Shown here one piece after another: positions 3,032 to 58,029 of a stretch of DNA of 60,251 nucleotides. The DNA is from a virus. Its lineage: Duplodnaviria > Caudoviricetes. The first letter of the stretch is position 1. Each line of letters begins with the position of its first letter. Under the pieces are notes generated by a model. The model did not search any database. It was given only the letters and a program-made list of their open reading frames with translations, and was not told the origin of the DNA. The stretch lies in IMG/VR virus record IMGVR_UViG_3300032257_000013, positions 1-60,251 of that record; one strand, 5' to 3'. A program made the translations under genes and the position numbers.

Positions 3032-3068
3032 AAAAGCCCGTCATGACTTGCCAGTCGCGGGCTTTTTT
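3032..3068. terminator. Intrinsic terminator, probably bidirectional
   Basis: AAAAGCCCG...CGGGCTTTTTT inverted repeat with A and T tails. Confidence 0.65.
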
Positions 3069-3264
3069 ATTGCAAAAATTCTCTCTCGAACTCCATAAAC
3101 CGCTGATGATCCTCCAAGCTATCCTGAGCCGCTCTAAGCTCAGATAAACGTATCTGCGCCTTGTTCCTTACTGGCGCTTCGTGTGACGTTAGGTCGCTCT
3201 CTGCTTGGCGGATTAGGGCTTTTAGGCTGCTTGTGGGTTCACACATGATCTGCAATCTCAGCAA
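3067..3264 (-). CDS. Hypothetical protein
   Basis: ORF in operon orientation, overlapping its upstream neighbour. Confidence 0.5.
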   Translation of the reverse strand: MLRLQIMCEPTSSLKALIRQAESDLTSHEAPVRNKAQIRLSELRAAQDSLEDHQRFMEFEREFLQ

Positions 3265-6699: not shown

Positions 6700-7500
6700 A
6701 TGGATCGTTCAGCAATCGAAAGAATTGAAGAGCTGGGAAACGCAGCCAGTAAGCTACCGGAAACAAATACGCCTATTACTGTTGTTCCTGACAACTCAAC
6801 AATAAAGAGTCTTGAAGACTACCAGCCTGGGCGTTCACGCTTTCGTGGAAAAATGAGCACGGAATCAATTGAAGACTTCGCTAGCTATACCAAGCAGTAC
6901 AGCCAAGCCAGCTGCTTCATTAATCAAAGCAAAATGATAGCAGTTTCTGTATTTAATCTTGGTACAGAAGACAGGCCAGGCCATGCCGACAACAAGGCAA
7001 TTCTATCCCTTGAAACAACGGCTGCATACGAAGCTGTCAAAGCAATAACAAATCAGCGTCTTTCCCAAAAGGATCTAGCTGAATGGCTTGAAGACTGGCG
7101 CATGAATCTTGAGGCAATCGACCAGGACAGCAGCGATCTTGATATTAAAAAATCAATTAACGCCATCAGAAATATAACGATTGAATCGAGTCGCAAAGAA
7201 GAACATTCAGATCACGACTTTAAAGCTGGCCGTAGCGCTATGGAAGAAATTGAAGCCAGCAGCAAGGAGAACATCCCTTCAAGTTTTTGTTTTACCTGCA
7301 TGCCTTACGTCGGCCTAAGTGACCGTCAATTTTATTTAAGGCTCAGCTTGATAACAGGCGGAGAAAAGCCGGTATTTATCCTGCGCATCATAAAGCACGA
7401 TGAAATTAAAGAGGAAATGACAAAAGAATTTAAGTCAATTCTTGATGATTCGCTTAAGGATGATGACATAAAAATATTTATTGGTAGTTTTTCTGCTTAA
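6700..7500 (+). CDS. YfdQ/DUF2303 family protein
   Basis: RSRFRG..ST..I.DF, VFNLGT..PGHADN, QK.LAEWLEDW motifs. Confidence 0.85.
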   Translation: MDRSAIERIEELGNAASKLPETNTPITVVPDNSTIKSLEDYQPGRSRFRGKMSTESIEDFASYTKQYSQASCFINQSKMIAVSVFNLGTEDRPGHADNKAILSLETTAAYEAVKAITNQRLSQKDLAEWLEDWRMNLEAIDQDSSDLDIKKSINAIRNITIESSRKEEHSDHDFKAGRSAMEEIEASSKENIPSSFCFTCMPYVGLSDRQFYLRLSLITGGEKPVFILRIIKHDEIKEEMTKEFKSILDDSLKDDDIKIFIGSFSA

Positions 7501-19549: not shown

Positions 19550-19636
19550 TGGTGCCTAGGGCCGGAATCGAACCGGCACGACCTTTGGGTCGGCAGATTT
19601 TAAGTCTGCTGCGTCTACCAGTTCCGCCACCCAGGC
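19550..19636 (-). tRNA. tRNA-Leu (anticodon UAA), full length with encoded CCA
   Basis: GCCTGGG..GCAGA-CTTAAAA-TCTGC, long variable arm CGACC-CAAA-GGTCG, GGTTCGATTCC, CCTAGGC-A-CCA. Confidence 0.95.
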
Positions 19637-19949: not shown

Positions 19950-20090
19950 ATGGAGATAACCCTTACAGAGATTGTCGCCCTCATGCTAATGTGGGTCTTG
20001 CTTTATGGTGCCATCCGATTATTTGAAAAGTTTATGGCCGGCGACTTCGATCATTTCTTTGGATACCACGATAAAAAAAAGAAACGCTAA
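19950..20090 (+). CDS. 46-aa single-pass membrane peptide (not in ORF track)
   Basis: MEITLTEIVALMLMWVLLYGAIRLFEKFMAGDFDHFFGYHDKKKKR; TTGACC-N18-TAGCAT promoter ends 6 nt before ATG. Confidence 0.55.
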   Translation: MEITLTEIVALMLMWVLLYGAIRLFEKFMAGDFDHFFGYHDKKKKR

Positions 20091-23000: not shown

Positions 23001-26000
23001 CGCTGTTCCTTACTATAGCGTTGCGTTCCGTCTGGAAAAGTCGATGACAAGCCTTCGCGATATGGCTTGAGATCAATACCCAAGTCCTTCGCAATCCGGT
23101 TCAACCCTTTACTGCTACCCATCGCCATGTACAGCTTTCTCATAGCGGCATTAACGCCCTTATTGCCGTATATGACATCCATGCCCCGGTGCGTCAATTC
23201 GTGTAGCAGGACGGTTTCGGCATGCTCTTCGCTTACAATCGCGTCACGAACAAGGTAGACTTTCCCCTTATGGAATACGCCCTCTACATCGCCATCCCCT
23301 GCGTCTTGCTTTTTGGCGTCATCTTGTATCGCCGCCGGAAGATCCCTGAAAGTGTCGACGACCGTTACACCGTCCGCACCTTTGAGGAAGGGGGCGACCC
23401 GATCAATGACCGCATCGAGTTCCACTGCCGCAAGCGGCGTTGATTTTTTCTTGGCGCGGGAAAGCTTAGCCTCTCCAATATCTGCAGACTTCTCAATCAC
23501 CACCATTCGCGCATTCGTGCCAGTATTGACAGGCAAGCTTGTGTCTTGAAATGATCCCTCTGGGAGTTTTTCTTCAGTTCCGCCTACGGATTCCAGCCAT
23601 TCACGAAATGCGGCTGCAGTTTTATCCTTGCCGAAAAAGACACCCTCACCCATTATCGCAACAATTCGACCGCCGGGCTTAAGTTGATCGTAAGCATGCT
23701 GCACATGCTCGGCATCACGACGATCCGAAAAAGGCGGATTCATTATGATTCGATCATAATCACCATCGGTAACATCCATAAAATCATTGCCGACAATATT
23801 AAGCCCCTTGGCCTCAAGAAGCTCACGACGGCTACTGGAAAATTCCACGACATCAGGCTCGACGCCCGCCTCGCGGATTCTCTCTGCGATATGCCCCATA
23901 CCTGCAGATGGCTCAAGCACTGTCATGCCAGGCTCAATCTGAGCAATCTCGACCATCTCATCGGCAACGCTTTCAGGCGTCGGGAAAAAATCAAGACCAT
24001 CCTTAGCCCGGCCAATCATTTTCCGTTCCATTTCTTTAATCTTGTCAGGCTCAGCCGGCGCTTCACGTAAAGCGACAAATTCACGCAGGGCAGAACGAAA
24101 CTCAGCAGGTGTCTCCAGCCCCATGCTATCAAGACGCTTGCGCTTTTCGTAAACGCTCTCGAACTGCCAAGGAACGGTTAGATTATTTTTGCGACGAGCC
24201 TTACCAATAAGCTTCTCAACAAACTCTGGATTCAGCGTAATACGCTTATCATCATCACCATCCCAAATTCCACGTTTCTGCGCTTCAGACGGACTGAGAA
24301 TAATAAGATTTTCGCCACGCTTAAATGGCAACACGATAGCCTGCCCACGATAGCCAGACCGACGGATGGCCTCAGTAGCAGCTGCCTTGCTCTTGAAGGC
24401 CGCTCTATCTCCAGACTTGGTTGAAAACGTTGATACCTTGTTCAAATTCTCTTTGGCAAACTTCAGATATTCCTTTGTTACATCATCCGCAACCTTAAGG
24501 ATTTTCTGGCCAATCAGCTTCATGCCTTCTGTTTCTTGCGCCTGACGACCCAACCTAGCCAAGTCCGAACGGAATGCTGTGTATGTTGGCCACGTTGCGA
24601 AATCAGCCGTTTCTGCATCCGGCGCTTCGCCTTTGCGTTTTACCTGATCCCGGTATTCCGGAAATTTATTTCTGATCTGCTCATCCTTTGCCAAATTCAC
24701 AAAGGTAGACATCATTTCAACTTGTGTTTTTTGTCTGACTCGATCAAGAAACTTAGCTTTCCCGCTTTCAATAGCTGCAGCAATGTTGCGCATAGTTTCC
24801 GACATCGCCTTATCGTAACTAGCGGACGCTTCTGCTCTGGCCGCCATACCGGCACGACGTGAAGTATTAACTTTGCGCTCTTGCCCCAATGACTCGTCGG
24901 CCCGACCTTCAAGACGATCAGCCATTTCATTCAAGCGCTCAACAGCGGATTGCGATCGATCGTCCTCAAACGCATCACGACGCACCTTAGCTTGTTCCTG
25001 CACTGCATCAGTATCGCCAGCACTCACATACTTCTGAAACGCCTCGGCGGACTCTCGCGTCTTAAACTGAAAGCCAGGAACAGCGCCAGTGCCTCGGAAA
25101 CGCGAATACCAACCACCCATTTTTTTGGCAGCAGATAACCATTCTTTATAGATATCACGGTCAACTCGTTCAGCAGTTTGCACCACAAACAAATCATAAT
25201 CATCGCGAGTATGTTTTGTTTCGATAATCTCGGTATCAGTAGTCGCGCCGGCTGAACCCACCCTTGTCCGATCTTCTGCTTTTTTTGCACCCCTTTCTGA
25301 TCTGGTTTTTTCTGCCAACAACGTATCAAATGTAGCCCTCTGCTCGGGCGATAAAGTCATCCGGGCATCCTGAAAGGTTGCTCCTTCTGCCATTTTTATC
25401 CTGACATTGCGAATGTAATCTTCTAATTTCTCAGGGTTTTCAGCTCCTAATTTTGCAGCTTCAAATTCCTTATTTCGCTCATCGCGAGCCTTTATAATTT
25501 CGTCAAAATGCTCAGTAATACTTTCGTCGGTGGCCTTCTCGACACTCTGACGAATAGAGTTAAGCCGTGACTCTTCATAGTTTCCACCGCCAATCATAAA
25601 GCTGACGGAATCACTAAGATTAAACTCGTCAGTAATGCGATCGAATGCGGCCCCAATCACCCTATCCTTTTTCTCGCTTTTGTAGCGATACTCAAGACCA
25701 GAGAAACGTTTGAATATTCCAGGCTTAGTCATGCTGGATATTTCGGAAAGAATACTGTCCTTATTTGCAACAACGGACTCAAAAGCGGATTTAAACTCAT
25801 CAGCTTTAACCTTCCCGTCATATAGGCGCGACTTGAAATCATCAAAGCTTGATAGCGAGTCAACAGCCACCTTTTCCCGTTTGCTAACCGTAACAAGTGA
25901 ATCTGTCTTTCCATCTCCAACAACAGACTCACGATACATGCTCTCACTGATCGTAAAATCCTTGTTCCGGCCTTTGTTTTCTACAAACCCGAACCGTTTA

Positions 26001-29000
26001 TAAAACTTGACTAACCTGCTCCGAGAAGTAACACCCTGGAAGTCGTCGCGCACGGCTGGCGTCAAGATGACCCGAAATCCCTTCTCGTCGGCATACTCAA
26101 CGATACGCTCCATCGCTTGCGTTCCAACACCTTGTTTCCTTTTATCTTTCTCAACAATGATAGTCTGCAACTTCAGGTCGCCTTTTGACGAAAACATGTG
26201 CAATGACTTCAGGCCCAGCTCGGCCTCCAGATTGGTCGCAAATTCATCAACATCGCTATTTACATCTTCATTAACCTTGGGAGTTTCCCGCTTACTAACC
26301 GGAACCGTCACATCTACATCAGGGCGTGCTGCCTTGGGCTTTTCTTCGCGTTTGCTGACCGGTGTGAGGATATCGGGTTTCTTTTTACTGATAGGCTGCT
26401 GTACGCCTTCCATCTTGATTTTTGTTAGCCCACCATCTTTACCTGAGAATTCAACGGCATTAAAAGTGAACACCTGCCCTTCTAGGTCAGTTTTTATTTT
26501 GGCGTACTTTTTCCCGGCACCCTTTTTCACGTAACCGAGCGTGATATGCGGCTTATAATCGGGGAATGTATCTGTATGCTCCAGTGAGTCGGCAATTTTC
26601 TTATTTAGTCGGGTAAGATCTGGGCTGCTGACACGTAACACGACAACATCATTTTCATCATTCTCAAATATTTCAACGCCATCAACAGTCGCGGTGATTT
26701 TCCCCTCACCCTGTAGCGCCTTGGAAAGATCGGTTGAGTCTGACGTATGAAGCCCATATTTGACGGTGATGTGTGGACGCTCTTCTAAACCTTCAGCCGG
26801 ATCTATGTCATTAACATCAATTAACCGCTTGGCGGTTTGGCGCACACGCATCATGTCGTCGCCATCGAGCGCAACCTGAGAAGAGCTATAATCATATTCA
26901 TGGGCGGTAGACGTAGAAACAGCCTCAGAAGTAGTTTCATTATCTGAAAAGTCAATTTGACCGGAATGCTCACGATAAGCGGTATAACCATCGTCGTATG
27001 CGCCCCACTGACTTTCTGGTAGATCTTTGACGTTTTCTTTCTTGTCAGCTTTCGCATCATTCCATCCCGAATAAAATCCCGGCGCATCCACAAGAGAGCG
27101 ATGCTCGCCACGATAATCCTTGATTGCTTTACGTGCCGCTTTATCGATTTTCTGTTTTTTCTGTCCCCCAGAATCAGAAACGGCCTCATCAGAGGCCGCT
27201 TGTTGTGGTGTTTTGGTGGTGGTGTCGGGCGGGGATTTATCAATTTCCTGAGCATTGATAGATGTTGATTGATTTGGCTCAGTTTTGAGTATGTTATTTT
27301 CCGTTTCAGGCGACACAACGGGTTTTGTGTCTGACTGCTTAGACACAACATCTTCAATATCAACCTGATTGTTGGCTTGCTCGCTGAAAAGATCGCCAGC
27401 GATACCCTGATCGGCTGGAACGTCTTTATTGGGGCTGCGCTTTTTATCCTGCGCTACTGCGGCGTCTTTGACTTCTTGGGCTGCTTGGGTGTTGTCTCCA
27501 AGGAGGTCTTTGTCTTCTGTTTGTAACCGCTCTTCTCGTCTTCGATCAGTCGGTCGTGGATCGCCTGCATCCGCTTGCTCTTCAGTTTGCGTGGCTTGAG
27601 GTGCTGCATTGCGTGGCTCCTTCGTGAATTTAATTAATTCTTGTGCAATAGCGTAATCAGATAGACTATCGGTGCGCTCGACCAGGGCATCGTAACCAGC
27701 CGGGTCAAGTTCAAACGCTTCTCTTGCCAAGTCTGCAAGGCTGCGTGTTTCAGCGTCCCATTCAGAATTATACGCCGATTCATCGCTACGGCTACCGGGC
27801 TCGTAATTGATCTCTGGCGAGTCTGCAATTAACTTAGCAATTTCGCCACGCGGTAATGGTTTCGCAATCTTCTGTCTAACTGCTGCCTGAGTATCACGCG
27901 CATAGTCGATATTGTCCGGGCTTGTCCGGTCGGCTTCAACCTGATCGAGCATGTATTCAATAACGCGGATTTCACGCTTACCAAGCAATTTACCTTCAAG
28001 CGCTTTATTAACGGCGCGCTGAGTGTCTTTAACCGAATAACCCGTATCAACCGCCGAACCGTCAACAGCCGGGGCCGTCATATTTTGGAACCATTCAGGG
28101 TTTATGCTGCTCGTCCTGATTGGGTCGTCAACCTGAGTAGCAGGTTTATCTTGATTCATTTCTGAGAACTGGCCGCCAACTAAGGCAATGCCGCCGCCCT
28201 TAGTCAGATCATCCGACATTTGCTGCAAAGGGGCGCGGTAGTCTTCTCTGGCTAAACGTGGGTCTTTCAAATTCGCCGGTAATCGTGCGGCGCGTGAATT
28301 ATCACCCTGCATTTTATCTGCAACCGGGCTTAATGCGTCCGCCATAGCGTTATTAGCCGGCGCTTCCTGATTCAATGCTTGCTGCGCAGTCTCATCAAGT
28401 GGGCGCTCTGAAACAACGTCGAACGGCTCAACAGTTTCAGTCCCCGCATCAACCTTGCCAGGCAAACGATTTTCATCACGCTGCAGCTTATTCAGATAAC
28501 GCGGCTGATCTTGCTGCATCATCATGTCTTCACGCACCTGGGCATCATCTACCGGGGCCGCCTCTCTTTCAGCAAAAGCCGCTTCACGTTCCTGTGCGAT
28601 TTTCTGTTCTTGCGCTTTGGCTTCTCGTGTCGCTAAGATTCGGTCGCGAAGTTTGGCTGTTTTTGGCGAAAGCTGATCAGCTATATCGCGAATGGGAGAT
28701 GTTTGCGGACTTTGATCAGCTGGCTCAAAGGGGTTGCCATCAACCGGGGTTAGCTGAGGTGATGCGTCTGTCTTTTTGCGCGTCAGTACATTAGCCGCAA
28801 TATCGCCCGGCAATCCAAGCGCTTCAAGCAAACCTTCAACAACGACATCAGCCTGGCTGGCTTCTTCCCCAACAACAGCGCTGCGGGCAATCTCGCCTGT
28901 TGCGCCACCTATCATCTGAATAAAGGTCTGCGCTGGAATATTAGTAAACTGGTTTGGGCCAATTTTCCACGGAACCACAGCGGCAGTAAGTGCATCAACA

Positions 29001-29737
29001 CCGCCTTGTGTCATTGACTGCAACGAAGCCCTTACTTCAGCTTGATCAAAGCTAAACCCTTTCTCAATGGATTCTGCAAGATTAGGCCCGTATGTATTAG
29101 CAAATGAACTGGAATAACCAGCCCCAGCCATTGTCGCAACTTGCCTTTTAATTCCCTTAAGAGCGACGGGAAGAACTTTGTCCATCCCTTTAGCGCCAAA
29201 GAGCATGGTAACTATTTGCGGCGCAAGCTCAGCCGCTTGGTCAATTATAAATCCTGTTGTATCAGGTGAATCAATAACCTCACTAATGAAATCGCCTGCC
29301 GCACCTACATATCCATCTGCCTTATTTGCCTCGTTATATGCTCGAGTCATTGTTGGATGTGTTGGAAGTTCAGCTATTTTCTCTTGTTGCGCAGAAACCT
29401 CATCCTTGTAAGATTCTCTTGGGCGAATTAATGGAGCTAGTTTTCTGCCGGTCTTTTCCTCATACATAGCAGACATTGTGTCTTGAATTTCATTAGCACC
29501 TGACGCTTCACTGAACTTTGCGGCAGCACCGAGAGCGCCTTGATACAACCTACGAGCGCCCTTCTCTATAGACGACAAAACACCGCCACCCTCATCCTCG
29601 TACGCTTTTATTTCTGCCTCATAGTCAGTATCGGATGAAGAATCATCTGCAAAAGGGTTCCCCTCAACGGGCATAAGCGTTGGCGCATCATTCTGCGCTG
29701 ACTCGAACGGATTACCACTAACTGGTGTGAGCTTCAT
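20087..29737 (-). CDS. Giant polyvalent internal virion/ejection protein: 2H phosphoesterase, GNAT, N6-adenine MTase, zincin metallopeptidase, LPD38-like C-terminus
   Basis: HITV/HITL; RKQGVGT..FYKRFGF; DFFPTP, LEPSAGMG, NPPF; HELTH; TVNFNRKG..LYLFYNAS.QG..IPLPWG; last gene of late operon after ejection genes. Confidence 0.85.
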   Translation of the reverse strand: MKLTPVSGNPFESAQNDAPTLMPVEGNPFADDSSSDTDYEAEIKAYEDEGGGVLSSIEKGARRLYQGALGAAAKFSEASGANEIQDTMSAMYEEKTGRKLAPLIRPRESYKDEVSAQQEKIAELPTHPTMTRAYNEANKADGYVGAAGDFISEVIDSPDTTGFIIDQAAELAPQIVTMLFGAKGMDKVLPVALKGIKRQVATMAGAGYSSSFANTYGPNLAESIEKGFSFDQAEVRASLQSMTQGGVDALTAAVVPWKIGPNQFTNIPAQTFIQMIGGATGEIARSAVVGEEASQADVVVEGLLEALGLPGDIAANVLTRKKTDASPQLTPVDGNPFEPADQSPQTSPIRDIADQLSPKTAKLRDRILATREAKAQEQKIAQEREAAFAEREAAPVDDAQVREDMMMQQDQPRYLNKLQRDENRLPGKVDAGTETVEPFDVVSERPLDETAQQALNQEAPANNAMADALSPVADKMQGDNSRAARLPANLKDPRLAREDYRAPLQQMSDDLTKGGGIALVGGQFSEMNQDKPATQVDDPIRTSSINPEWFQNMTAPAVDGSAVDTGYSVKDTQRAVNKALEGKLLGKREIRVIEYMLDQVEADRTSPDNIDYARDTQAAVRQKIAKPLPRGEIAKLIADSPEINYEPGSRSDESAYNSEWDAETRSLADLAREAFELDPAGYDALVERTDSLSDYAIAQELIKFTKEPRNAAPQATQTEEQADAGDPRPTDRRREERLQTEDKDLLGDNTQAAQEVKDAAVAQDKKRSPNKDVPADQGIAGDLFSEQANNQVDIEDVVSKQSDTKPVVSPETENNILKTEPNQSTSINAQEIDKSPPDTTTKTPQQAASDEAVSDSGGQKKQKIDKAARKAIKDYRGEHRSLVDAPGFYSGWNDAKADKKENVKDLPESQWGAYDDGYTAYREHSGQIDFSDNETTSEAVSTSTAHEYDYSSSQVALDGDDMMRVRQTAKRLIDVNDIDPAEGLEERPHITVKYGLHTSDSTDLSKALQGEGKITATVDGVEIFENDENDVVVLRVSSPDLTRLNKKIADSLEHTDTFPDYKPHITLGYVKKGAGKKYAKIKTDLEGQVFTFNAVEFSGKDGGLTKIKMEGVQQPISKKKPDILTPVSKREEKPKAARPDVDVTVPVSKRETPKVNEDVNSDVDEFATNLEAELGLKSLHMFSSKGDLKLQTIIVEKDKRKQGVGTQAMERIVEYADEKGFRVILTPAVRDDFQGVTSRSRLVKFYKRFGFVENKGRNKDFTISESMYRESVVGDGKTDSLVTVSKREKVAVDSLSSFDDFKSRLYDGKVKADEFKSAFESVVANKDSILSEISSMTKPGIFKRFSGLEYRYKSEKKDRVIGAAFDRITDEFNLSDSVSFMIGGGNYEESRLNSIRQSVEKATDESITEHFDEIIKARDERNKEFEAAKLGAENPEKLEDYIRNVRIKMAEGATFQDARMTLSPEQRATFDTLLAEKTRSERGAKKAEDRTRVGSAGATTDTEIIETKHTRDDYDLFVVQTAERVDRDIYKEWLSAAKKMGGWYSRFRGTGAVPGFQFKTRESAEAFQKYVSAGDTDAVQEQAKVRRDAFEDDRSQSAVERLNEMADRLEGRADESLGQERKVNTSRRAGMAARAEASASYDKAMSETMRNIAAAIESGKAKFLDRVRQKTQVEMMSTFVNLAKDEQIRNKFPEYRDQVKRKGEAPDAETADFATWPTYTAFRSDLARLGRQAQETEGMKLIGQKILKVADDVTKEYLKFAKENLNKVSTFSTKSGDRAAFKSKAAATEAIRRSGYRGQAIVLPFKRGENLIILSPSEAQKRGIWDGDDDKRITLNPEFVEKLIGKARRKNNLTVPWQFESVYEKRKRLDSMGLETPAEFRSALREFVALREAPAEPDKIKEMERKMIGRAKDGLDFFPTPESVADEMVEIAQIEPGMTVLEPSAGMGHIAERIREAGVEPDVVEFSSSRRELLEAKGLNIVGNDFMDVTDGDYDRIIMNPPFSDRRDAEHVQHAYDQLKPGGRIVAIMGEGVFFGKDKTAAAFREWLESVGGTEEKLPEGSFQDTSLPVNTGTNARMVVIEKSADIGEAKLSRAKKKSTPLAAVELDAVIDRVAPFLKGADGVTVVDTFRDLPAAIQDDAKKQDAGDGDVEGVFHKGKVYLVRDAIVSEEHAETVLLHELTHRGMDVIYGNKGVNAAMRKLYMAMGSSKGLNRIAKDLGIDLKPYREGLSSTFPDGTQRYSKEQRANILVEEVIAHQGELKPSIQKRIRELIGAIKEWLRSHGLTKLASKYGANDIAYMAKKAREAGSGKASKRGATRFMATGASESESESVSMFSRKSEEDATNALPEESRAQQIWDTLVFKAQDKFAPLLKVQRQAEKKQGVDELLEDQDAYLAELRYHGMTGAKIEDFHEDHIQPLLEAIHKADLSLEEIGEVLHARHAPEANAQLKKINPDREDNEALSGMSNEEAVQVIKDFKERGQLDALEDIASRVDIITKARRDLLRESGLEANETIDAWENAYKYYIPLQREGKGKGMPRKGKGFDTRGKSKRRTGSNLDVANVLAQVVAQYEATVIRSEKAKVGKALLDFVKANPDEKLYTIDKPDYKATFDKDGLVVYRPDTSYILADNVLSVRIDGEEHHITFNEKSVDAMRIARSMKNLGAQDAGVIVNALLKVNRWLALVNTSANPEFVISNFARDMQTAGYNLNDTEAANMKKAIFKDVGKAWRGIRSAQKGKLDQAWAKHFREFRDAGGKTGWMDHYRDIDQRETKLKKLLREMQPGKIMTIKRGLNNLMKFIEDENTAVENAVRLSTFVHARKAGISEAKAARIAKELTVNFNRKGDSGQVLNALYLFYNASIQGSVRLIIAARKSSKVRKMMLGTVAFAVMLDMLNRSLGGDDDDGEPRYDKIPDYTKAHNLIVMRPGGDYFKIPLPWGYNVMHVTGQVLGEAMSKKGFKSTDGAMRVLSSVMGAFNPIGGEESILQMVSPTITDPFIQWGTNKDFAGRPLRPADNPFGVDKPNSQKYWGSVREPSRYITEQLNSLTGGDAVRPGAVDISPEFFDLMYDTVTGGAGRFLGDTVATPIKILQKEEIETYTVPLVRKLYGTQNPRRMVSSYYKNMEDIRLVENQIKFYREDPEKRRSVKDEFNAQYRLIGRAKQYQSQIRKLRKRRNQIKNTKKLTDQERKLKLQPIEDRINLVMTKFNKLYREKVVMP

Positions 29738-31465: not shown

Positions 31466-31935
31466 AACAACTCCCCTTTAACGATTCCTAATAGATGCTG
31501 ATCCATAATATTTCCACCTTTCATAAAACTTGCCCGATTAATTCCTTCGTTTTTCATTCCAACCTTTTTAGCAAGACGGTATGCAGCCCTGTTATTCTCA
31601 GGAACATGCGTTATGACTTTCTTGCATGACGTGCCTGAAAACATCCATTCAAGCGAAGCGATAGCCATATCAACAACCATAGATCCACGATATTCAGGAA
31701 GAATATTTGTATGGACTTCGTAGGTAATAGAGTTGTGAGGGTGATAGAAAAAAATACCTGCAACATTATTATCAATAAGTGGCGCAAGAAAATAGCAGGC
31801 ATGATTATCGATCATACTCAAGCAGTCGAACTTAACGGCATCAGGAGCGCCATCGTCAGAGACAAACGGATAAATAGATGGATGAGAAATAATCCGATTC
31901 ACCAAATCAACATCAAATGTCCGTTCAATGTGCAT
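31447..31935 (-). CDS. GNAT-fold virion assembly protein (P22 gp14/DUF2824-like)
   Basis: EVH..ILPEYRG, KVITHVP..NRAA.RLAKKVGM..EG. Confidence 0.75.
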   Translation of the reverse strand: MHIERTFDVDLVNRIISHPSIYPFVSDDGAPDAVKFDCLSMIDNHACYFLAPLIDNNVAGIFFYHPHNSITYEVHTNILPEYRGSMVVDMAIASLEWMFSGTSCKKVITHVPENNRAAYRLAKKVGMKNEGINRASFMKGGNIMDQHLLGIVKGELLCQQQQ

Positions 31936-32554: not shown

Positions 32555-32949
32555 ACCGCTGTAATCTCTATTGTTTGATCAAGATATGGAAATGCAGAGA
32601 GCGTAACGGTATATGTTCCGGCAGTATCAAAAGTAAGCTCAAGCGATCCATCGGTTACTTGAAATGAGTCATTAGCTGGACCAGTTATTACAACATTAGT
32701 AGGATTCGGCACACTTAGCGTTGTCGACACGTCAACGCCATCAGCAATAACAGTGGTTTTATCGGGCGTTAAAGCGAGCTGCGGTTTGTCTGTGACAACG
32801 CCTGCTAGGATGTACTGAGTCGCATCATTTGCAGTGCCTTCGATAACTGTTTCGCCAACTTGGGCCTGCATGGCCGCCATATAGGTATGCACATGTCCAG
32901 TACGGAGTATTTCACCAGACATCGAGTCAAACACAACAATGTTGCTCAT
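32551..32949 (-). CDS. Tail fibre assembly/accessory protein
   Basis: GEILRTG N-terminus plus Ig-like ADGVD..GTYTV..FPYL; follows fibre gene. Confidence 0.6.
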   Translation of the reverse strand: MSNIVVFDSMSGEILRTGHVHTYMAAMQAQVGETVIEGTANDATQYILAGVVTDKPQLALTPDKTTVIADGVDVSTTLSVPNPTNVVITGPANDSFQVTDGSLELTFDTAGTYTVTLSAFPYLDQTIEITAV

Positions 32950-40257: not shown

Positions 40258-40754
40258 TACAGCTCGTCGTAACTGTAATTGAGTGATTCCTGTGTGACAT
40301 TACCCTGAACAGCAGTAGTGCCAACAGCCATTTGAAGAACCAGCGCATCGGTAGTTGCGTTCAATGCAGAAAGCTGACCAGCGTGCCAAGCCAATTTTGC
40401 GCCCGATACATACGTTGTTCCGTCTGTCGTGGCTATCGTTGAAACGGTAGCAATAGGTGTCACACCCGCCGCATTCGTTCCAACATTAATCCCAACGCCA
40501 GTATCAAACGCGCCATCCGTCCAGAACTGGAAATTTTGAACATAGTTATCAGGAACCACTGCGATCTTCGCCCTGATCCATTTTTCAAAACTATAATTCG
40601 TGCCAGCCGCAGGAATCGTGACGGGGTTAGCCTGACGGTTTGCCAAGCTATTTGTTGCATTATCTGCCGAAATTAAATCAATACCAGTAACCGCAGCGCT
40701 CTCGGTTGCGGCATTGGCCCCTGTAAATACATGAAGGTTTACTGTAGCAACCAT
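40257..40754 (-). CDS. Putative virion structural protein
   Basis: Beta-rich, IPAAGTNYSFEKW and YSYDE patterns; AGAGGA RBS. Confidence 0.6.
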   Translation of the reverse strand: MVATVNLHVFTGANAATESAAVTGIDLISADNATNSLANRQANPVTIPAAGTNYSFEKWIRAKIAVVPDNYVQNFQFWTDGAFDTGVGINVGTNAAGVTPIATVSTIATTDGTTYVSGAKLAWHAGQLSALNATTDALVLQMAVGTTAVQGNVTQESLNYSYDEL

Positions 40755-48130: not shown

Positions 48131-48156
48131 AATAAGGGACGCCGAAGCGCCCCTCA
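48131..48156 (-). terminator. Intrinsic terminator after MCP
   Basis: GGGGCGC-TTCG-GCGTCCC then TTATTTGTTT on minus strand. Confidence 0.7.
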
Positions 48157-48174: not shown

Positions 48175-49281
48175 TTAGTTTGGATCAGCAGCCGCCGTAT
48201 CAAGAGCAATAAGACCGAAATCCTTGCTGTTGAAAGTAGACTTCTTCACGCCGAAAATAGAGCCGGTTGTGATAACAGCTTGGTTGCCGTTATCGCGTGG
48301 CTCTTCATGCCAGTCAAAACGCAGACCAGTACCAGGCGAGCCAAAAGCACATACCGCAGCCTGCGCGCCCATAAACAGAGCACGACCAGCAGCAACATTG
48401 CTGCCAGCACCGTAATCACTAAAGCGAATGGCGCTCTTATGACTGTGCAGAACAACATTATTGTGCATACCGAGTGAGCCACGGAAAATAGGACTCTTGC
48501 GGCCTTCAGCCGTTGCAGCAGACTTTTGGATTTCCAACCAATCAGAAGATCCAGTTGCAGTACGCAGATCAAAAGCCTGAAATGGGTTCATGAGAAGAAC
48601 GAAATGCTCTTCACCATCGATCATAATAGGCTGAAGCTGTGGTGTTTCCTGAGTACCACCACCGATCATTGTTGCTTTGGTTGCCGCACGCTCAATGAGA
48701 TTGACGTTCATTTTGTCAGTTGCATCAAGAGAAGCCTTACTGGTTGCATTGCCGCCATACATTAAGTGAGCGGTATCAGGCGCAGTCAGCGAGTTATTGG
48801 CAAAACCTGAATACGATGTCGGGAACGTGTAATCGGTATTAATACCGCGCGCACCAGACAGGTACATGAAGAACAGCTCATCGAAAATACGACTCCACCA
48901 TTCAGCCTGACGTTTGCGAGCGACCTTACGCAGATCATGGATCGTGCGCTTGCGTGTCATCTTGCCGCCAGTGTTTACACCGCCACGCATCTGGTCAATG
49001 TAGACCTGATCCGTGTAAAACTTCAGATCTTCTTCCTGACCTTCGAGAACATCATCACCCTCAACCGGCTGCATCTTGAGCTGAACGGACAGATCGTAAG
49101 TGATCTGTTCACCCGCATCATTTTCAAGATGTGGAAGCATCTGAATCGGTGTTGAAGCCTCTGGGCCTTTACCCATAAACTTCTTGTTAAAGTATGAAAT
49201 TTTAGCTGTATCAACAGCCAGGAAAGCGGAATACTTCTTAACCGCCTTCGCGTCGTTTAAACCTACGATTGTACGTGCCAT
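48175..49281 (-). CDS. Major capsid protein, N4-gp56/DUF4043 type
   Basis: LEG.EE.L.FY.D...IDQ.R, MTRKRT.HDLR, GAQA...AFG, FNSKDFG..ALDTAA. Confidence 0.9.
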   Translation of the reverse strand: MARTIVGLNDAKAVKKYSAFLAVDTAKISYFNKKFMGKGPEASTPIQMLPHLENDAGEQITYDLSVQLKMQPVEGDDVLEGQEEDLKFYTDQVYIDQMRGGVNTGGKMTRKRTIHDLRKVARKRQAEWWSRIFDELFFMYLSGARGINTDYTFPTSYSGFANNSLTAPDTAHLMYGGNATSKASLDATDKMNVNLIERAATKATMIGGGTQETPQLQPIMIDGEEHFVLLMNPFQAFDLRTATGSSDWLEIQKSAATAEGRKSPIFRGSLGMHNNVVLHSHKSAIRFSDYGAGSNVAAGRALFMGAQAAVCAFGSPGTGLRFDWHEEPRDNGNQAVITTGSIFGVKKSTFNSKDFGLIALDTAAADPN

Positions 49282-49360
49282 GAGTGCACACCTCTTTAGT
49301 TAATTAACATTGGTGCGGCACTCATGCGCCTTAATTTGTGACAGCACTCTTGCGCTGTCA
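49279..49360 (-). promoter_or_regulatory. Candidate translational switch in the MCP leader
   Basis: Hairpins 49339-49360 and 49317-49330 share GCGC-ANGA-GTGC; 49318-49326 is the exact complement of 49279-49287 (includes MCP ATG). Confidence 0.6.
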
Positions 49361-49369
49361 TATCTAAAA

Positions 49370-49555
49370 TTACAATTTATTCAGCTTACGCTTGATCTGT
49401 GAAGATCCTCCCTTGAGCTGATTGACCTGAATGGATGGGTCGGCGTCAACGCGCACAGTGGCGCGTCTACCGCTTTTTTCTTGGAACGTCACCTGAACTT
49501 TGCCCTTATCAATATCCAGGACATCACCCATCTCCATTTGAACAAATAAAGCCAT
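49370..49555 (-). CDS. Divergent CsrA/RsmA-fold protein, 61 aa
   Basis: Residue pattern GD.L.I...V.VT.....G....V.V.A...I.V aligns with CsrA GE.L.IG.EV.VTV...G.QV.IGV.AP..V.V. Confidence 0.6.
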   Translation of the reverse strand: MALFVQMEMGDVLDIDKGKVQVTFQEKSGRRATVRVDADPSIQVNQLKGGSSQIKRKLNKL

Positions 49556-49558
49556 TGA

Positions 49559-50506
49559 TTATCCTGCGGCGTACCGTTCTGCTTGGTCGGGAGTCATCCT
49601 AGAAATAGCTTCTTCGAGCTCCATCCCTTCTAGCTTGTCGATAGCTGCGAACTCACCACCGCTATCAACGCCACTGGTATCTGCCGCCGGTAATCCACCC
49701 AAGGTTTTAGGTATATCAACAACCTTTCTGCCTTTGTCCGGCTTGGTAGGTTCGCCGGTATCGCCATCCTTAAGGTCCGGCACCGCAAACTCCGCTTTAT
49801 AACGTTTGTCTGCTTCACTCAATACAGAAAGCCCGTCTTTATTGGCAAACTCATCATTCGACAACACGTCAGAAACAATCTGACCAAATGCCGCATACTT
49901 AGCGGACGAGTCTTTGTAATGGTTGTTGGTTTTAAAAAATTGATCCTGCTCCCAAGTCCAGCGTTGCTCAGCAATGTCTGCGTTGCTTTGCTCTGCAAAC
50001 TCAGCCTGCTTTTTGAGAATATTCAGGTCACTACGCTGATTATTGAGCGCAGCCAGCTTGTCATGGTATTCATTAAGCTCAAGCTCTTCATCCGCCAGAT
50101 CAACCCCAAGAACTTTTATCTGCTCGTCAATGCTGGTTATTTGAGCATCAACATCTTCAGGCTTGCTAGTGTTTAGCTTTGGTGTAAAGTCTGGCGTACT
50201 GCCCGCTTCATCGGCGCTCTGAACATTCCCGTCATCATCAGTGCCTGCATCGGCATTAACATCGGCGTCGGCAGCTTTAGCCGCTTCACCACCAGCATCA
50301 AGGTCGTCATTACCGGCCTTATCATCGTCGCTGTTAGTAGCTTCGGCAGACTCGCCAACATCAGCATTAACATCGTCGCCAGCCTTGTCATCTTCAGACA
50401 ACTCATTGTTTTCATCGTCAACACCATTAACCTCGTCGTCATCATTAAGCGCGGCTAATTCTTCTTCGGTCAAACCTTCCTTATCATCATCGGTAATACC
50501 TGACAT
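49559..50506 (-). CDS. Scaffolding protein
   Basis: Very acidic N-terminus, coiled coil, PKTL..LPAAD C-terminus; between portal and MCP. Confidence 0.75.
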   Translation of the reverse strand: MSGITDDDKEGLTEEELAALNDDDEVNGVDDENNELSEDDKAGDDVNADVGESAEATNSDDDKAGNDDLDAGGEAAKAADADVNADAGTDDDGNVQSADEAGSTPDFTPKLNTSKPEDVDAQITSIDEQIKVLGVDLADEELELNEYHDKLAALNNQRSDLNILKKQAEFAEQSNADIAEQRWTWEQDQFFKTNNHYKDSSAKYAAFGQIVSDVLSNDEFANKDGLSVLSEADKRYKAEFAVPDLKDGDTGEPTKPDKGRKVVDIPKTLGGLPAADTSGVDSGGEFAAIDKLEGMELEEAISRMTPDQAERYAAG

Positions 50507-57432: not shown

Positions 57433-57453
57433 GCATTGATTATGCTTATTTAA

Positions 57454-58029
57454 TCAAAACACCCCTACCTCATCTAACCGCTCAGTTATATGCCGCTCCG
57501 CTTGCTCAAGATGAAGATAAATATTGTTATAACACTCCGACAAAAGCTTGGACCATCCCGACTCACTAAACGATTGTCGAGTTATATACATATTTTTCGC
57601 CATCATAGATCGTGTTACTCGCCGTTCCAGCCCCAACTCCTTATACCTAACGTTTTCAATGACACAGCCTGCCATCCCTCTAATCTTTGCGATTTCCTTT
57701 CGCTCGCCTTCATCGCTTCGGTGCAGCTCATGCGCAAGAAAGTCACTCGCCCCTAGCAGTCTTGCATTGTCCCAGGCACCGTACACTTCGCAGAATAGCC
57801 GGCCAGCTGCATGAACCGGGCAGTTATTGGCAATGACGCTGATCGTATGGGCCAGGTCTTTAACATCCTCCAGCGAAATACCGCTGCTTCCCCCCTGCCT
57901 ATTCGACTTCATAATGGTGCCAATCTGAGACTTAACGCCAGAACGTAGCAACACTTCTTCTGCCCACCCAATAGCTGACTGTGCATTATCGAATTTTATT
58001 ATTGGTTTTTCTTCGACTGCTTGATTCAT
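57454..58029 (-). CDS. Putative late-gene activator/antiterminator (Q position)
   Basis: Last early gene before pR'/tR'; C-terminal HTH-like segment TRSMMAKNMYITRQSF. Confidence 0.5.
   Translation of the reverse strand: MNQAVEEKPIIKFDNAQSAIGWAEEVLLRSGVKSQIGTIMKSNRQGGSSGISLEDVKDLAHTISVIANNCPVHAAGRLFCEVYGAWDNARLLGASDFLAHELHRSDEGERKEIAKIRGMAGCVIENVRYKELGLERRVTRSMMAKNMYITRQSFSESGWSKLLSECYNNIYLHLEQAERHITERLDEVGVF

What the first reader, a model, noticed from the sequence alone, without database searches (positions are those of the whole stretch)
49279..49555. CsrA-like protein plus twin ANGA hairpins forming a mutually exclusive switch over the major capsid start
Seen (mRNA sense): right after the 61-aa gene come UGACAGCGC-AAGA-GUGCUGUCA and GGCGC-AUGA-GUGCC, the same GCGC-ANGA-GUGC hairpin twice with loops 26 nt apart. 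The second overlaps CAUGAGUGC-cg-CACC, which can instead pair with GGUG-u-GCACUCAUG, burying the SD (GAGGUG) and AUG of the capsid gene. Known: CsrA/RsmA dimers bind two hairpin-loop ANGGA sites. This protein keeps the CsrA beta pattern but lacks the R44-equivalent arginine. Inference: an orthogonal phage CsrA with ANGA specificity stabilises the twin hairpins, frees the RBS and switches on capsid translation, tying capsid output to expression of the portal-scaffold genes. I know of no description of this module.
Basis: partly seen in the sequence, partly recalled or inferred. Interest (0 to 1): 0.88.

Follow-up and report, generated by a model that had tools for sequence, protein, structure and literature searches.

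The report
Phage CsrA-like protein with capsid-leader RNA switch
A small phage protein related to the bacterial RNA-binding regulator CsrA sits next to a conserved RNA hairpin that can alternately hide or expose the start of the major capsid gene, which suggests that these phages run their own translational switch for late genes.

Summary
The 61-aa ORF (49555-49370, minus strand) belongs to a phage branch of the CsrA family. A family profile hits RsmE at 3e-8, and the AF2 model's best PDB matches are all CsrA/Rsm chains.

The two C-ANGA-G hairpins are the only strong matches in the 60-kb genome to a model built from relatives. A proximal hairpin of this kind lies 28-50 nt before the capsid start in most related leaders. 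Its stem covaries. Its 3' half is complementary to the SD-to-AUG region, so the two folds exclude each other.

In 80 related contigs, 65 have both protein and hairpin, 4 have neither, 9 have protein only and 2 have hairpin only. In PBC5-like phages the gene and the capsid gene lie about 30 kb apart, yet both persist. There the same switch also precedes the endolysin and DarB-like genes.

The twin arrangement is a minority form (12 of 62 distinct leaders). Binding, and its direction (activation or repression), are inferred and not shown. The protein is already annotated in the literature as "CsrA-like". I found no description of the RNA element or of a phage-internal regulon.

The parts
49370..49555 (-). 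61-aa CsrA-like protein gene (phage branch of the CsrA/RsmA family), placed between the scaffold-like gene and the major capsid gene
   Evidence: ORF list. PHROG 8397 'CsrA-like regulator', E 2.4e-5. A family profile hits RsmE 2jpp at 3e-8 and CsrA 1y00 at 1.4e-7. AF2 mean pLDDT is 85.8. The Foldseek PDB ranks shown from 1 to 15 are all CsrA/Rsm chains, TM about 0.7.
49339..49360 (-). Distal hairpin (hp1): 9-bp stem, AAGA loop (49351-49348). It does not take part in the alternative fold.
   Evidence: Sequence. Isolated fold -13.6 kcal/mol. Model R1 score 23.2 bits. A second hairpin of this kind occurs in 12 of 62 distinct leaders.
49317..49330 (-). Proximal hairpin (hp2): GGCGC-AUGA-GUGCC, loop 49325-49322. 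This is the conserved core element.
   Evidence: Sequence. -6.5 kcal/mol. Model R1 score 24.5 bits. Stem covariation across 39 distinct relatives. It is also the RNAalifold consensus on a structure-blind alignment.
49277..49329 (-). Alternative long hairpin. Its 5' arm is the loop and 3' half of hp2 plus GCACC. Its 3' arm is part of the SD, the spacer, the ATG and the next 2 nt.
   Evidence: It is part of the minimum-energy fold. Alone it folds at -22.8 kcal/mol. The same kind of pairing is seen in relatives.
49289..49294 (-). Shine-Dalgarno GAGGUG of the major capsid gene. Its last four bases are paired in the closed state.
   Evidence: Unpaired probabilities 0.96, 0.98, 0.01, 0, 0, 0 in the free ensemble.
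48175..49281 (-). Major capsid protein gene (368 aa). The start codon 49281-49279 is paired in the closed state.
   Evidence: Pfam PF13252, E 1.9e-56. PHROG 334 major head protein. AUG unpaired probability 0-0.03.
49559..50506 (-). 315-aa acidic protein in the scaffold position. It lies upstream of the CsrA-like gene, with no terminator-like site found between them.
   Evidence: ORF list. PHROG 8246, function unknown. Position between portal and capsid genes. No terminator-like site on the minus strand between 50506 and 49282.
48133..48156 (-). Terminator-like hairpin plus T-run just after the capsid gene. It is a boundary of the unit and not part of the switch.
   Evidence: Consensus scan. 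Sequence.

Best explanation
The 61-aa protein is a phage-specific CsrA paralogue. I propose that it acts in trans on the phage's own late mRNAs.

Its likely target is a short hairpin with a C-G closing pair, a conserved G-U second pair and an A-N-G-A loop. In the capsid leader the loop and 3' half of this hairpin are also the 5' arm of a longer helix, which pairs with the SD, the spacer and the AUG.

- Without the protein, the long helix wins in the window by about 10 kcal/mol, and the capsid start is closed.
- With the protein bound to the small hairpin, the AUG is released and capsid translation is switched on. In the window a second, constitutive hairpin 26 nt upstream would help, possibly with one dimer bridging both.

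What is shown:
- CsrA homology and fold.
- Conservation and covariation of the small hairpin.
- Conserved complementarity to the translation start.
- Strand specificity.
- Co-occurrence with the gene, including in genomes where the two are unlinked.

What is inferred:
- Protein-RNA binding.
- The direction of the effect.
- The dimer bridging.

My odds:
- The hairpin is a functional cis-regulatory RNA: about 0.9.
- The CsrA-like protein is its ligand: about 0.65.
- Given binding, activation at capsid-type leaders: about 0.6-0.65.
For: Protein:
- PHROG 8397, E 2.4e-5.
- The profile of 44 family members hits RsmE at 3e-8 and CsrA at 1.4e-7.
- 31 of 44 members hit Pfam CsrA at E <= 0.01.
- The AF2 model's top PDB matches are all CsrA/Rsm chains, rmsd 0.6-1.5 A for ranks 1-14.
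- Two relatives carry tandem fused copies, which fits a dimeric unit.

Small hairpin:
- Selecting on CANGAG alone gave 39 distinct hairpins. The unselected stem pairs are kept through compensatory change: pair 7-18 is GC 29, UA 8, AU 1, UG 1, and pair 6-19 is GC 19, CG 8, UG 3, AU 2, GU 1 with 6 unpaired.
- The covariation score is 0.404 against 0.160 in shuffles (0 of 500 reach it), and 0.07-0.18 when partners are slid.
- The G-U second pair is kept in 34 of 39. That U can also pair with A in the long helix.
- RNAalifold on a structure-blind alignment returns the same hairpin.

Strand and place:
- 114 of 120 model hits in 80 loci are on the coding strand, and 67 of 80 loci have a hit in the capsid leader.
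- Hairpin density is 61 in 9.9 kb of leaders against 38 in 477 kb of the opposite strand.

Alternative fold:
- Arms from the same locus pair at -16.4 kcal/mol, against -11.4 for arms from different loci (0 of 10,000 permutations; 45 distinct leaders).
- For the variable outer arms alone the figures are -7.5 against -4.9 (0 of 20,000; 22 of 26 better than their row median).

Loop identity is separate from start-site complementarity:
- Distal hairpins and scaffold-site hairpins keep GC-ANGA-G(U/C) although they are not part of the long helix.

Co-occurrence in the 80 loci:
- Protein and hairpin 65, protein only 9, hairpin only 2, neither 4.
- All 7 cultured relatives first tested have their best coding-strand hit in the capsid leader.
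- Three distant capsid relatives without the gene have no leader hit.

Natural unlinking:
- In PBC5 and Atu_ph08 the gene stays after portal and scaffold while the capsid gene lies about 27-30 kb away and keeps the switch.
- In proviruses G007 and G008 the capsid leader matched the switch pattern with no CsrA-like gene in the fetched locus, and the gene was found elsewhere in the record.
- The endolysin, DarB-like and a fourth leader carry the switch too in PBC5 and Atu_ph08.
- F116, whose capsid protein is only 24% identical, has a family member (gp47) with two strong sites beside it, at 25.2 and 20.2 bits.

Precedent and context:
- Burkholderia and S. meliloti, hosts of such phages, are reported to lack chromosomal csrA (passages of PMC7366521).
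Against: - No binding or expression data exist for any family member.
- The window protein itself misses Pfam CsrA at E <= 1.
- The residue aligned with CsrA R44 is Q in the window and is basic in only 23 of 44 members. The R6 equivalent is hydrophobic.
- No C-terminal helix appears in the model.
- The loop contains GGA in only 10 of 39 cases, so canonical CsrA recognition cannot be assumed.
- Foldseek E-values are weak (0.03 at best), as expected for 46 aligned residues.
- Nine loci with the protein have only variant loops that the model misses.
- One ~80-kb phage lineage (G004/G005) has a look-alike element before a 196-aa ORF and no detectable CsrA-like gene.
- The fixed-register test of the long helix on a MAFFT alignment is only modest: 64.4% paired against 60.7% in shuffles.
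- The sequences are related, so the permutation numbers are not probabilities.
- At scaffold-type and F116 gene-49 sites the loop or 3' arm is itself the SD. There, binding would repress, so the direction is not uniform.
- The 10 kcal/mol gap is large for a 5-bp hairpin plus protein unless binding is co-transcriptional.
- JC1 virion proteomics found one peptide of the homologue, a hint of a structural role.
- Campa et al. report a correlation between phage and host csrA and favour host manipulation.
Confidence: 0.42

Rival explanations
1. Same protein-RNA pair, opposite sign. The CsrA-like dimer anchors on the upstream ANGA hairpin and uses its second surface to cover the SD. The SD (A/G)GGAG itself fits ANGAG. 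The result would be classic CsrA-style repression of the capsid and other late genes, for example as negative feedback or to set the scaffold:capsid ratio.
For: - Repression by binding that competes with the ribosome is described as the usual CsrA mode (abstract of PMC7492729).
- At scaffold-gene sites in one subfamily and at F116 gene 49, the hairpin loop AGGA plus G is the SD, 7 nt before the AUG.
- 37 of 62 leaders have only one hairpin, which would leave a second dimer surface free.
- Many capsid SDs read AAGGAG.
Against: - It gives no role to the conserved complementarity between the hairpin's 3' half and the translation start. With it there would be two OFF states and no defined ON state for the most abundant virion protein.
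- In the closed fold the ANGA is base-paired and not displayed.
Confidence: 0.2
2. The hairpin and switch are real cis-RNA elements, but the CsrA-like protein does not operate them. Candidates are a 30S standby or decoy site (the loop GAG pairing with the anti-SD), an RNase III or RNase E processing or stabilising element at the 5' end of late transcripts, or recognition by another phage or host factor. The CsrA-like protein would then do something else, such as host manipulation or a virion role.
For: - The G004/G005 lineage has a look-alike element and no CsrA-like gene.
- Key CsrA RNA-contact residues are not conserved.
- One JC1 peptide was found in virions.
- The literature favours host manipulation.
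- In PBC5 and Atu_ph08, four of the leaders have a TATAA-like hexamer about 10-20 nt upstream, so the hairpin may be the 5' end of late transcripts.
Against: - Co-occurrence is tight: 65 with both and 4 with neither out of 80 loci, and both persist when unlinked.
- The only known activity of the fold is binding hairpin loops of this general type.
- A conserved A at loop position 1 and a C-G closing pair are not needed for anti-SD pairing.
- The stems are about 16 bp with bulges, which by recollection is shorter than typical RNase III substrates.
- There is no U-run after either hairpin.
Confidence: 0.25
3. The hairpins are chance or purely thermodynamic features (a terminator or stabiliser of the upstream gene), and the small ORF is a non-functional or mis-called gene.
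For: - The 9-mer pattern alone is not enriched in the window.
- The small protein found only itself in the word-indexed protein search and nothing by tblastn in phage records.
Against: - The covarying stem, the strand bias and the leader-specific placement across 67 of 80 loci argue against chance.
- The ORF is conserved upstream of the capsid gene in 75 of 81 loci and has 23 further relatives at E <= 0.001 in the exhaustive search.
- The element stays with the capsid gene when the upstream gene is 30 kb away.
- No terminator-like tail follows either hairpin.
Confidence: 0.03

Closest known systems
CsrA/RsmA/RsmE family of RNA-binding translational regulators (Pfam PF02599; PDB 1y00, 2jpp, 1vpz)
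   Same: About 60 aa, an all-beta protomer, profile-level homology and the same fold. The G10, G29, R33 and A38 positions align with conserved CsrA residues. The candidate target is a purine-rich loop on a short hairpin near an SD.
   Different: The window protein falls below Pfam's threshold. The R44 and R6 equivalents are not conserved, the T5 equivalent is an acidic residue in 41 of 44, and there is a family-specific K27. No C-terminal helix was modelled. The candidate loop is a 4-nt ANGA with a C-G closing pair and a G-U second pair, and GGA is present in only 10 of 39. The targets are the phage's own late leaders and not a host regulon.
CsrA-mediated translational activation of E. coli ymdA (Renda et al. 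2020, PMC7492729; abstract and section headings read)
   Same: Two sites in a 5' leader and an SD-sequestering hairpin. Binding favours the open form and promotes ribosome binding.
   Different: There the regulator is the host's global CsrA with GGA sites, and the mechanism is shown experimentally. Here the regulator is phage-encoded, the site is a covarying hairpin whose own 3' half is the anti-start strand, and nothing has been tested.
Phage-encoded csrA homologues as listed and discussed in the literature (Sobrero & Valverde 2020, PMC7366521; JC1 gp47, PMC9144972; PTXU04 gp28, PMC11879866; Campa et al. 2021, PMC8450108; passages read)
   Same: The same gene family at the same place in GP4, DC1, Bcep22, BcepIL02, SopranoGao, Pavtok and JC1. 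Knockdown of a phage csrA homologue in PTXU04 gave smaller plaques.
   Different: Those papers treat the gene as a moron or a host-manipulating factor. The Adler et al. paper says its role in the phage life cycle had not been tested before. None of the passages I read mentions a cis element in phage mRNAs. I could not tell whether PTXU04 belongs to this phage group.
Classic phage translational operators: MS2/Qbeta coat protein on the replicase hairpin, T4 RegA (recalled, not checked here)
   Same: A phage protein recognises a small hairpin or RBS site on a phage mRNA and sets the timing or amount of another phage protein.
   Different: Those are repressors with unrelated folds. Here the fold is CsrA, the RNA is bistable, and the favoured reading is activation.
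Post-transcriptional autoregulation of P22 scaffolding protein (recalled, not checked here)
   Same: A P22-like portal/scaffold/capsid module with post-transcriptional control of head-assembly genes. In one subfamily the hairpin overlaps the scaffold gene's SD.
   Different: In P22 the scaffold protein itself is the effector, and no CsrA-like gene or ANGA hairpin is known to me there.

Membership tests
CsrA/RsmA family (PF02599) | Significant sequence similarity to the family profile | tested here: met
   At family level: the profile of 44 members hits RsmE at 3e-8 and CsrA at 1.4e-7, and 31 of 44 members hit PF02599 at E <= 0.01, best 1.6e-11. The window protein alone does not hit PF02599 at E <= 1. 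It does hit PHROG 8397 'CsrA-like regulator' at 2.4e-5.
CsrA/RsmA family (PF02599) | CsrA protomer fold (five beta strands in an extended, swap-ready conformation) | tested here: met
   AF2 with the 44-sequence alignment gives pLDDT 85.8, and above 90 for 43 residues. The Foldseek PDB ranks shown from 1 to 15 are all CsrA/RsmA/RsmE chains, with TM 0.6-0.7 and rmsd 0.6-1.5 A for ranks 1-14. E-values are only 0.03-1, and none is <= 0.001.
CsrA/RsmA family (PF02599) | Intertwined homodimer with two RNA-binding surfaces | not testable with these tools
Indirect hint: two relatives (L061, L008) encode two tandem copies in one chain. A single-sequence AF2 model of L061 was too poor to use, pLDDT 53.
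CsrA/RsmA family (PF02599) | Conserved RNA-contact residues (R44; beta-1 L2, L4, R6; that these are the contact residues is recalled from the CsrA literature) | tested here: not met
   The R44 equivalent (position 46) is Q in the window. Across the 44 members it is K 16, R 7, V 5, L 4, Q 3, I 3. The R6 equivalent is L/V/M/I. The hydrophobic L2 and L4 equivalents are kept (L3 in 34 of 44; V/L/M/I at position 5).
CsrA/RsmA family (PF02599) | C-terminal alpha helix after beta-5 | tested here: inconclusive
   The AF2 model shows no helix. Residues 51-61 have mean pLDDT 52-59.
CsrA/RsmA family (PF02599) | Binds GGA-containing motifs, preferably in hairpin loops | not testable with these tools
   The candidate sites are hairpin loops, but they read ANGA: AUGA 15, AAGA 13, AGGA 10, ACGA 1 of 39.
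CsrA-activated, SD-sequestering leader (ymdA type) | A leader structure that occludes the ribosome binding site | tested here: met
   In the window the AUG has unpaired probability 0-0.03 and four SD bases have 0-0.01. In relatives the -10..+3 region pairs with the motif arm, and pairing between arms of the same locus is conserved.
CsrA-activated, SD-sequestering leader (ymdA type) | Regulator sites placed so that binding disfavours the occluding structure | tested here: met
   The loop and 3' arm of hp2 (49326-49317) form the 5' arm of the occluding helix, so the two folds exclude each other. This is a geometric fact. Binding itself is untested.
CsrA-activated, SD-sequestering leader (ymdA type) | Regulator binding increases 30S binding and translation | not testable with these tools
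   This needs toeprint or reporter assays.
Any described RNA family (Rfam 15) | Match to a curated covariance model | tested here: not met
   No match at E <= 10 in 49150-49600. The only gathering-score match in the whole window is a tRNA.

The most novel reading that the evidence does not exclude
A diverged, phage-borne branch of CsrA acts as an orthogonal master switch of late-gene translation.

It would recognise a C-ANGA-G hairpin that doubles as the anti-anti-start strand, and so open the otherwise closed starts of the capsid gene. In some genera it would also open the lysis, DarB-like and other virion genes, while closing starts where the hairpin loop is itself the SD, as at the scaffold gene.

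That would be a protein-operated bistable RNA regulon. It would time head assembly and possibly lysis. It spans many podophage genera: Lessie-, Gervaise-, Lasta-, Pavtok-, Itty-, Roslycky- and Hollowayvirus, plus many uncultured phages. It would also work in hosts that have no CsrA of their own.
Probability: 0.35. Interest if true: 0.85.

Novelty: new variant of a known kind. Interest (0 to 1): 0.76.

Why it matters
Phage csrA genes have been read as morons that tamper with the host. One recent functional screen notes that their role in the phage life cycle had not been tested before.

A conserved, covarying target hairpin on the phage's own capsid, lysis and virion mRNAs would change that reading. 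The gene would be a core regulator of morphogenesis. It would also explain why it is kept in phages of hosts reported to lack csrA.

If the reading holds, it would:
- add a new cis-regulatory RNA motif that is absent from Rfam;
- add a second natural example of CsrA-type translational activation through an SD-sequestering structure;
- show a changed loop specificity (ANGA instead of GGA);
- offer a compact, possibly orthogonal protein-hairpin pair for synthetic translational control.

The hypothesis can be tested directly with a two-plasmid reporter and a gel shift.

Tried and rejected
- **Word-indexed homologue search.** The 61-aa protein found only itself. tblastn against phage records found nothing at E <= 1. 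The exhaustive search was needed to get relatives. Six of its 24 hits are long repeat proteins, which I set aside as beta-rich look-alikes without checking them.
- **Plain 9-mer pattern.** It is not enriched in the window, so I rejected it as a test and used a covariance model instead.
- **First outer-arm duplex test.** One search was flawed: the arms were truncated or empty and gave dummy energies. I discarded it and redid it on 26 leaders with arms of 8 nt or more. The 18 leaders dropped had loops too short to leave an outer arm.
- **Fixed-register count of the long helix.** On a MAFFT alignment it is only modest, because the registers differ between lineages. RNAalifold on that alignment returns only the small hairpin.
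- **Terminator reading.** Neither hairpin has a T-run, and neither is called on the minus strand.
- **Translational coupling or a cis effect of the upstream ORF.** Rejected, because the element stays with the capsid gene when the ORF is about 30 kb away.
- **DNA palindrome or operator reading.** Disfavoured by the conserved G-U pair (34 of 39) and by the strand bias of 114 of 120 hits.
- **Third window hit.** The hit at 24869-24892 (11 bits) lies inside a 3216-aa ORF and I treated it as chance. The leader of that ORF shows no motif.
- **Tandem protein model.** The single-sequence AF2 model of L061 was too poor (pLDDT 53) to test an intramolecular dimer.
- **RNA expression.** No RNA holder was listed among public runs for this stretch, so nothing was laid.
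- **PTXU04.** I could not place it among the relatives with the searches I ran.
- **Papers not seen.** Supplementary tables of PMC7366521 and PMC11879866 may bear on which phages carry the gene, but I did not see them. PMC3187461 (Bcep22/BcepIL02) is not held, so whether it discusses the leader is unknown to me.
- **Limits of the literature claim.** 'Not found in print' rests on searches of the open-access library only.
Full report
**What is there.** The window is a whole 60,251-base virus record. On its minus strand lies a head-assembly block:

| Gene | Coordinates | Evidence |
|---|---|---|
| P22-like portal | 52686-50506 | PF16510, E 2.7e-157 |
| 315-aa acidic protein in the scaffold position | 50506-49559 | PHROG 8246, function unknown |
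| 61-aa ORF | 49555-49370 | see below |
| Major capsid protein | 49281-48175 | PF13252, E 1.9e-56 |

A terminator-like hairpin follows the capsid gene at 48156-48133.

- Hairpin 1 (49360-49339) has 9 pairs and an AAGA loop.
- Hairpin 2 (49330-49317) has 5 pairs and an AUGA loop. The loops start 26 nt apart.
- The stretch CAUGAGUGC-C-GCACC can pair instead with GGUGU-GCACUCAUG, which holds four bases of the SD and the ATG.

RNAfold puts hairpin 1 plus this long helix in the minimum-energy fold (z = -4.39; 0 of 200 shuffles fold as well). Enforcing hairpin 2 costs 9.6 kcal/mol (-38.4 against -28.8) and frees the AUG.

**The protein.**
- Alone it misses Pfam CsrA at E <= 1, but it hits PHROG 8397 'CsrA-like regulator' at 2.4e-5.
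- The exhaustive search found 24 proteins at E <= 0.001: the protein itself, 17 proteins of 57-99 aa, and six of 754-3318 aa.
- I aligned the window protein with 28 small ORFs from related contigs and 15 of these hits to make alignment A1, 44 sequences.
- The A1 profile hits RsmE (2jpp) at 3e-8, E. coli CsrA (1y00) at 1.4e-7 and seven further CsrA entries below 0.002.
- 31 of the 44 members hit PF02599 at E <= 0.01.
- AF2 on A1 gives pLDDT 85.8. Every Foldseek PDB rank shown from 1 to 15 is a CsrA/RsmA/RsmE chain (TM 0.51-0.71; rmsd 0.6-1.5 A for ranks 1-14, 3.0 A for rank 15). No E-value is below 0.03.

So homology and fold are well supported. The RNA-contact residues are not:
- The R44 equivalent is Q46 in the window and is basic in only 23 of 44 members.
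- The R6 equivalent is hydrophobic.
- The T5 equivalent is D or E in 41 of 44.
- K27 (39 of 44) and R33 (37 of 44; T in the window) mark the family.

Two relatives carry two copies fused in one chain (L061, domain E-values 2.7e-12 and 1.9e-14; L008). That fits a dimeric working unit. The dimer itself could not be tested.

**The RNA in relatives.** A capsid-protein scan of IMG/VR gave 80 loci at 66-97% identity.
- 62 distinct 200-nt leaders remain after removing duplicates. Most carry a hairpin with an ANGA loop whose stem begins 32-56 nt before the capsid start.
- I selected on CANGAG alone, which gave 39 distinct 24-mers. The stem pairs that were not part of the selection are kept through compensatory change:
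  - Pair 7-18: GC 29, UA 8, AU 1, UG 1.
  - Pair 6-19: GC 19, CG 8, UG 3, AU 2, GU 1, and 6 unpaired.
  - Covariation score 0.404 against 0.160 in shuffles (0 of 500 reach it), and 0.07-0.18 with slid partners.
- The second pair is G-U in 34 of 39. That U can also pair with A in the long helix, which is what a sequence serving two folds would need.
- RNAalifold on a structure-blind MAFFT alignment of 45 whole leaders returns only this hairpin.
- Loops are AUGA 15, AAGA 13, AGGA 10 and ACGA 1. Some relatives have 5-nt loops of the form ANGAC or ANGAG.

A covariance model of the hairpin finds the two window hairpins at 24.5 and 23.2 bits, and nothing else above 11 bits. In the 80 loci it gives 120 hits, 114 of them on the coding strand, and 67 of 80 loci have a hit in the capsid leader (my count from the table).

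The twin arrangement is a minority form. Of 62 distinct leaders, 12 have two hairpins (loop spacing 13-34 nt), 37 have one and 13 have none with a strict ANGA loop. Density is 61 hairpins in 9.9 kb of leader against 38 in 477 kb of the opposite strand.

**The alternative fold in relatives.**
- In most motif-bearing leaders the region -10..+3 is largely paired with the motif arm. Over all 60 distinct leaders the mean unpaired probability of the AUG is 0.35, against 0.47 in shuffles, and 22 of 60 are below 0.2.
- The registers differ between lineages, so a fixed-register count is only modest: 64.4% paired against 60.7% in shuffles and 31-47% with slid partners.
- A register-free test is clearer. 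The motif arm pairs with the start region of its own locus at -16.4 kcal/mol on average, and with those of other loci at -11.4 (45 distinct leaders; 0 of 10,000 permutations reach this).
- With the conserved cores removed the figures are -7.5 against -4.9 (26 leaders; 0 of 20,000; 22 of 26 better than their row median).
- The sequences are related, so these are not probabilities.

**Link between protein and RNA.** An HMM of A1 finds the small ORF upstream of the capsid gene in 75 of 81 loci, window included. Crossing this with the RNA model over the 80 IMG/VR loci gives:

| | Hairpin found | Hairpin not found |
|---|---|---|
| Protein found | 65 | 9 |
| Protein not found | 2 | 4 |

- The 9 with protein only have hairpins with variant loops, as seen.
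- The 2 with hairpin only (L024/25) have a very diverged ORF, E 0.011.
- The 4 with neither are L070-72 and L078. L072's record is 92% complete and has no CsrA-like gene anywhere. Its only model hit lies in an open reading frame away from the capsid gene.

In cultured phages:
- Seven cultured relatives (PBC5, SopranoGao, GP4, JC1, Atu_ph08, Itty13, Stean) all have their best coding-strand hit in the capsid leader, and each leader folds into a start-burying helix.
- Three distant capsid relatives without the gene in the fetched locus (Vibrio K250, VT2-Sakai, Mae-JY35) have no leader hit.

The most telling cases are natural unlinkings:
- In PBC5 and Atu_ph08 the small gene stays behind portal and scaffold, while the capsid gene sits about 27-30 kb away next to a divergent endolysin gene.
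- In PBC5 and Atu_ph08 the capsid leader keeps both the hairpin and the long helix. So do the endolysin leader, the DarB-like leader (the top hits, 24.6 and 23.5 bits) and a fourth gene.
- In proviruses G007 and G008 the capsid leader matched the switch pattern with no CsrA-like gene in the fetched locus, and the gene was found elsewhere in the record.
- In F116 the capsid protein is only 24% identical. Its gp47 is a family member (E 2e-15), and two sites of 25.2 and 20.2 bits lie at the starts of the next two genes.
- These cases exclude a cis explanation such as a terminator or translational coupling. They point to a diffusible factor with several targets.

A reverse scan of IMG/VR with an RNA pattern alone gave 32 matches in 29 loci:
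- 18 lie before capsid homologues. 13 of those have the small ORF in the same locus, and 5 are of the PBC5 type.
- One lies before an endolysin-like gene.
- One lies before another gene in a locus that carries the protein.
- 12 lie elsewhere. Six of these are from one ~80-kb phage lineage that has no detectable CsrA-like gene. This is a real exception, or possibly a convergent simple hairpin.

**Other targets and the sign of the effect.**
- In one subfamily, whose proteins carry an insertion, the hairpin also sits at the scaffold gene start. There its loop AGGA plus G, or its 3' arm, is the SD. The same holds at F116 gene 49. Binding at such sites would repress.
- In some loci the hairpin precedes the gene after the capsid gene, again with GAGUG/CACUC complementarity to that start.
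- For capsid-type leaders I favour activation. The conserved complementarity between the hairpin's 3' half and the start has a purpose only if the closed fold is the default and the hairpin form is the alternative that something stabilises. A repressor would add a second OFF state to the most highly expressed virion gene.
- This step is inference, and I put it at about 0.6 given binding.

**What is known.**
- RefSeq and PHROGs already label the gene 'CsrA-like regulator' in SopranoGao, GP4, Itty13, Bcep22 and others.
- Sobrero & Valverde list these phage alleles. They note that Burkholderia hosts, and S. meliloti, lack chromosomal csrA.
- The JC1 paper calls the gene a moron and found one peptide in virions.
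- Campa et al. propose suppression of host defence.
- Adler et al. saw small plaques on knockdown of a phage csrA homologue and state that its role in the phage life cycle had not been tested before.
- I found no description of the hairpin, the switch or a phage-internal regulon. Rfam 15 has no matching family.
- These searches cover only the open-access library.

**Verdict.** Binding and activation remain hypotheses, and the twin form is one variant of a broader single-hairpin system with several late-gene targets. It is a new variant of a known kind of regulation, with a new RNA motif, and it is directly testable.

Noticed in passing
L061:2611-2943 and L008:959-1231: Two relatives encode the CsrA-like domain twice in one chain (110 and 90 aa). 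Both halves match the family HMM. This could be a natural single-chain pseudo-dimer.
   Followed up: partly
L010, L011, L015-L017, L020-L022, L026, L029, L030, L037-L039, L043, L050, L061, about 1.2-1.5 kb upstream of the capsid start: In the subfamily whose CsrA-like proteins carry an insertion, a second copy of the hairpin sits at the scaffold gene start. Its loop (AGGA+G) or its 3' arm serves as that gene's SD. This geometry implies repression rather than activation.
   Followed up: partly
L013:4127-4150, L014:4129-4152, L047:4145-4168, L056:4164-4187: In several loci the same hairpin lies just after the capsid stop, in the leader of the next virion gene (145-159 aa).
   Followed up: partly
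PBC5 (NC_003324.1) 32716-32739(-), 3943-3966(+), 14012-14035(+), 3857-3881(-); Atu_ph08 (NC_070876.1) 14425-14448(+), 40444-40467(+), 31599-31622(-), 40361-40384(-): Four late leaders per genome (DarB-like, capsid, endolysin and a fourth gene) share the hairpin plus start-burying helix. Four of these eight leaders (DarB-like and the fourth gene) also have a TATAA-like hexamer about 10-20 nt upstream of the hairpin, which may be a late promoter -10 element.
   Followed up: partly
L085:3240 (Atu_ph08 gp36): The annotated capsid start codon appears to be the AUG inside the hairpin loop (GCGC-AUGA-GUGC). The N-terminus that matches the relatives (MTKTVVAFGD...) starts about 35 nt downstream.
   Followed up: partly
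L087, about 3050-3250 (Erwinia phage Stean, record 57435-57590, minus strand): An unannotated CsrA-like ORF (E 1.9e-15) lies in the 315-nt gap between the scaffold-position gene and the capsid gene.
   Followed up: yes
L101:6759-6965, 6902-6925, 7356-7379 (Pseudomonas phage F116): F116 gp47 ('unknown') is a member of this phage CsrA-like family. Two strong hairpin sites lie at the starts of genes 48 and 49, the first of them inside the 3' end of gp47's own coding sequence.
   Followed up: partly
L102, L104, L107, L122, L124, L125 (records G004, G005): A ~80-kb phage lineage carries GCGC-AUGA-GUGC plus a start-burying complement before a 196-aa ORF, but has no detectable CsrA-like gene. This is either convergence or a different factor.
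   Followed up: partly
L133:2724-2963 and its capsid leader (Microcystis phage Mwe-JY07): A cyanophage has a weakly similar small ORF (E 0.0016) in the same position. Its leader has an AUGAC-loop hairpin and a start-burying helix.
   Followed up: no
window 20087-29737 (-) and 19553-19636 (-): A 3216-aa ORF, in the position where relatives have the DarB-like gene. It was not analysed, and no hairpin motif is visible in its leader. A tRNA gene lies just downstream of it.
   Followed up: no
window 49374-49403 (-): A weak sigma-70-like match (9 of 12) lies at the 3' end of the small ORF, upstream of hairpin 1. If it is real, a capsid transcript could start just before the hairpins.
   Followed up: no
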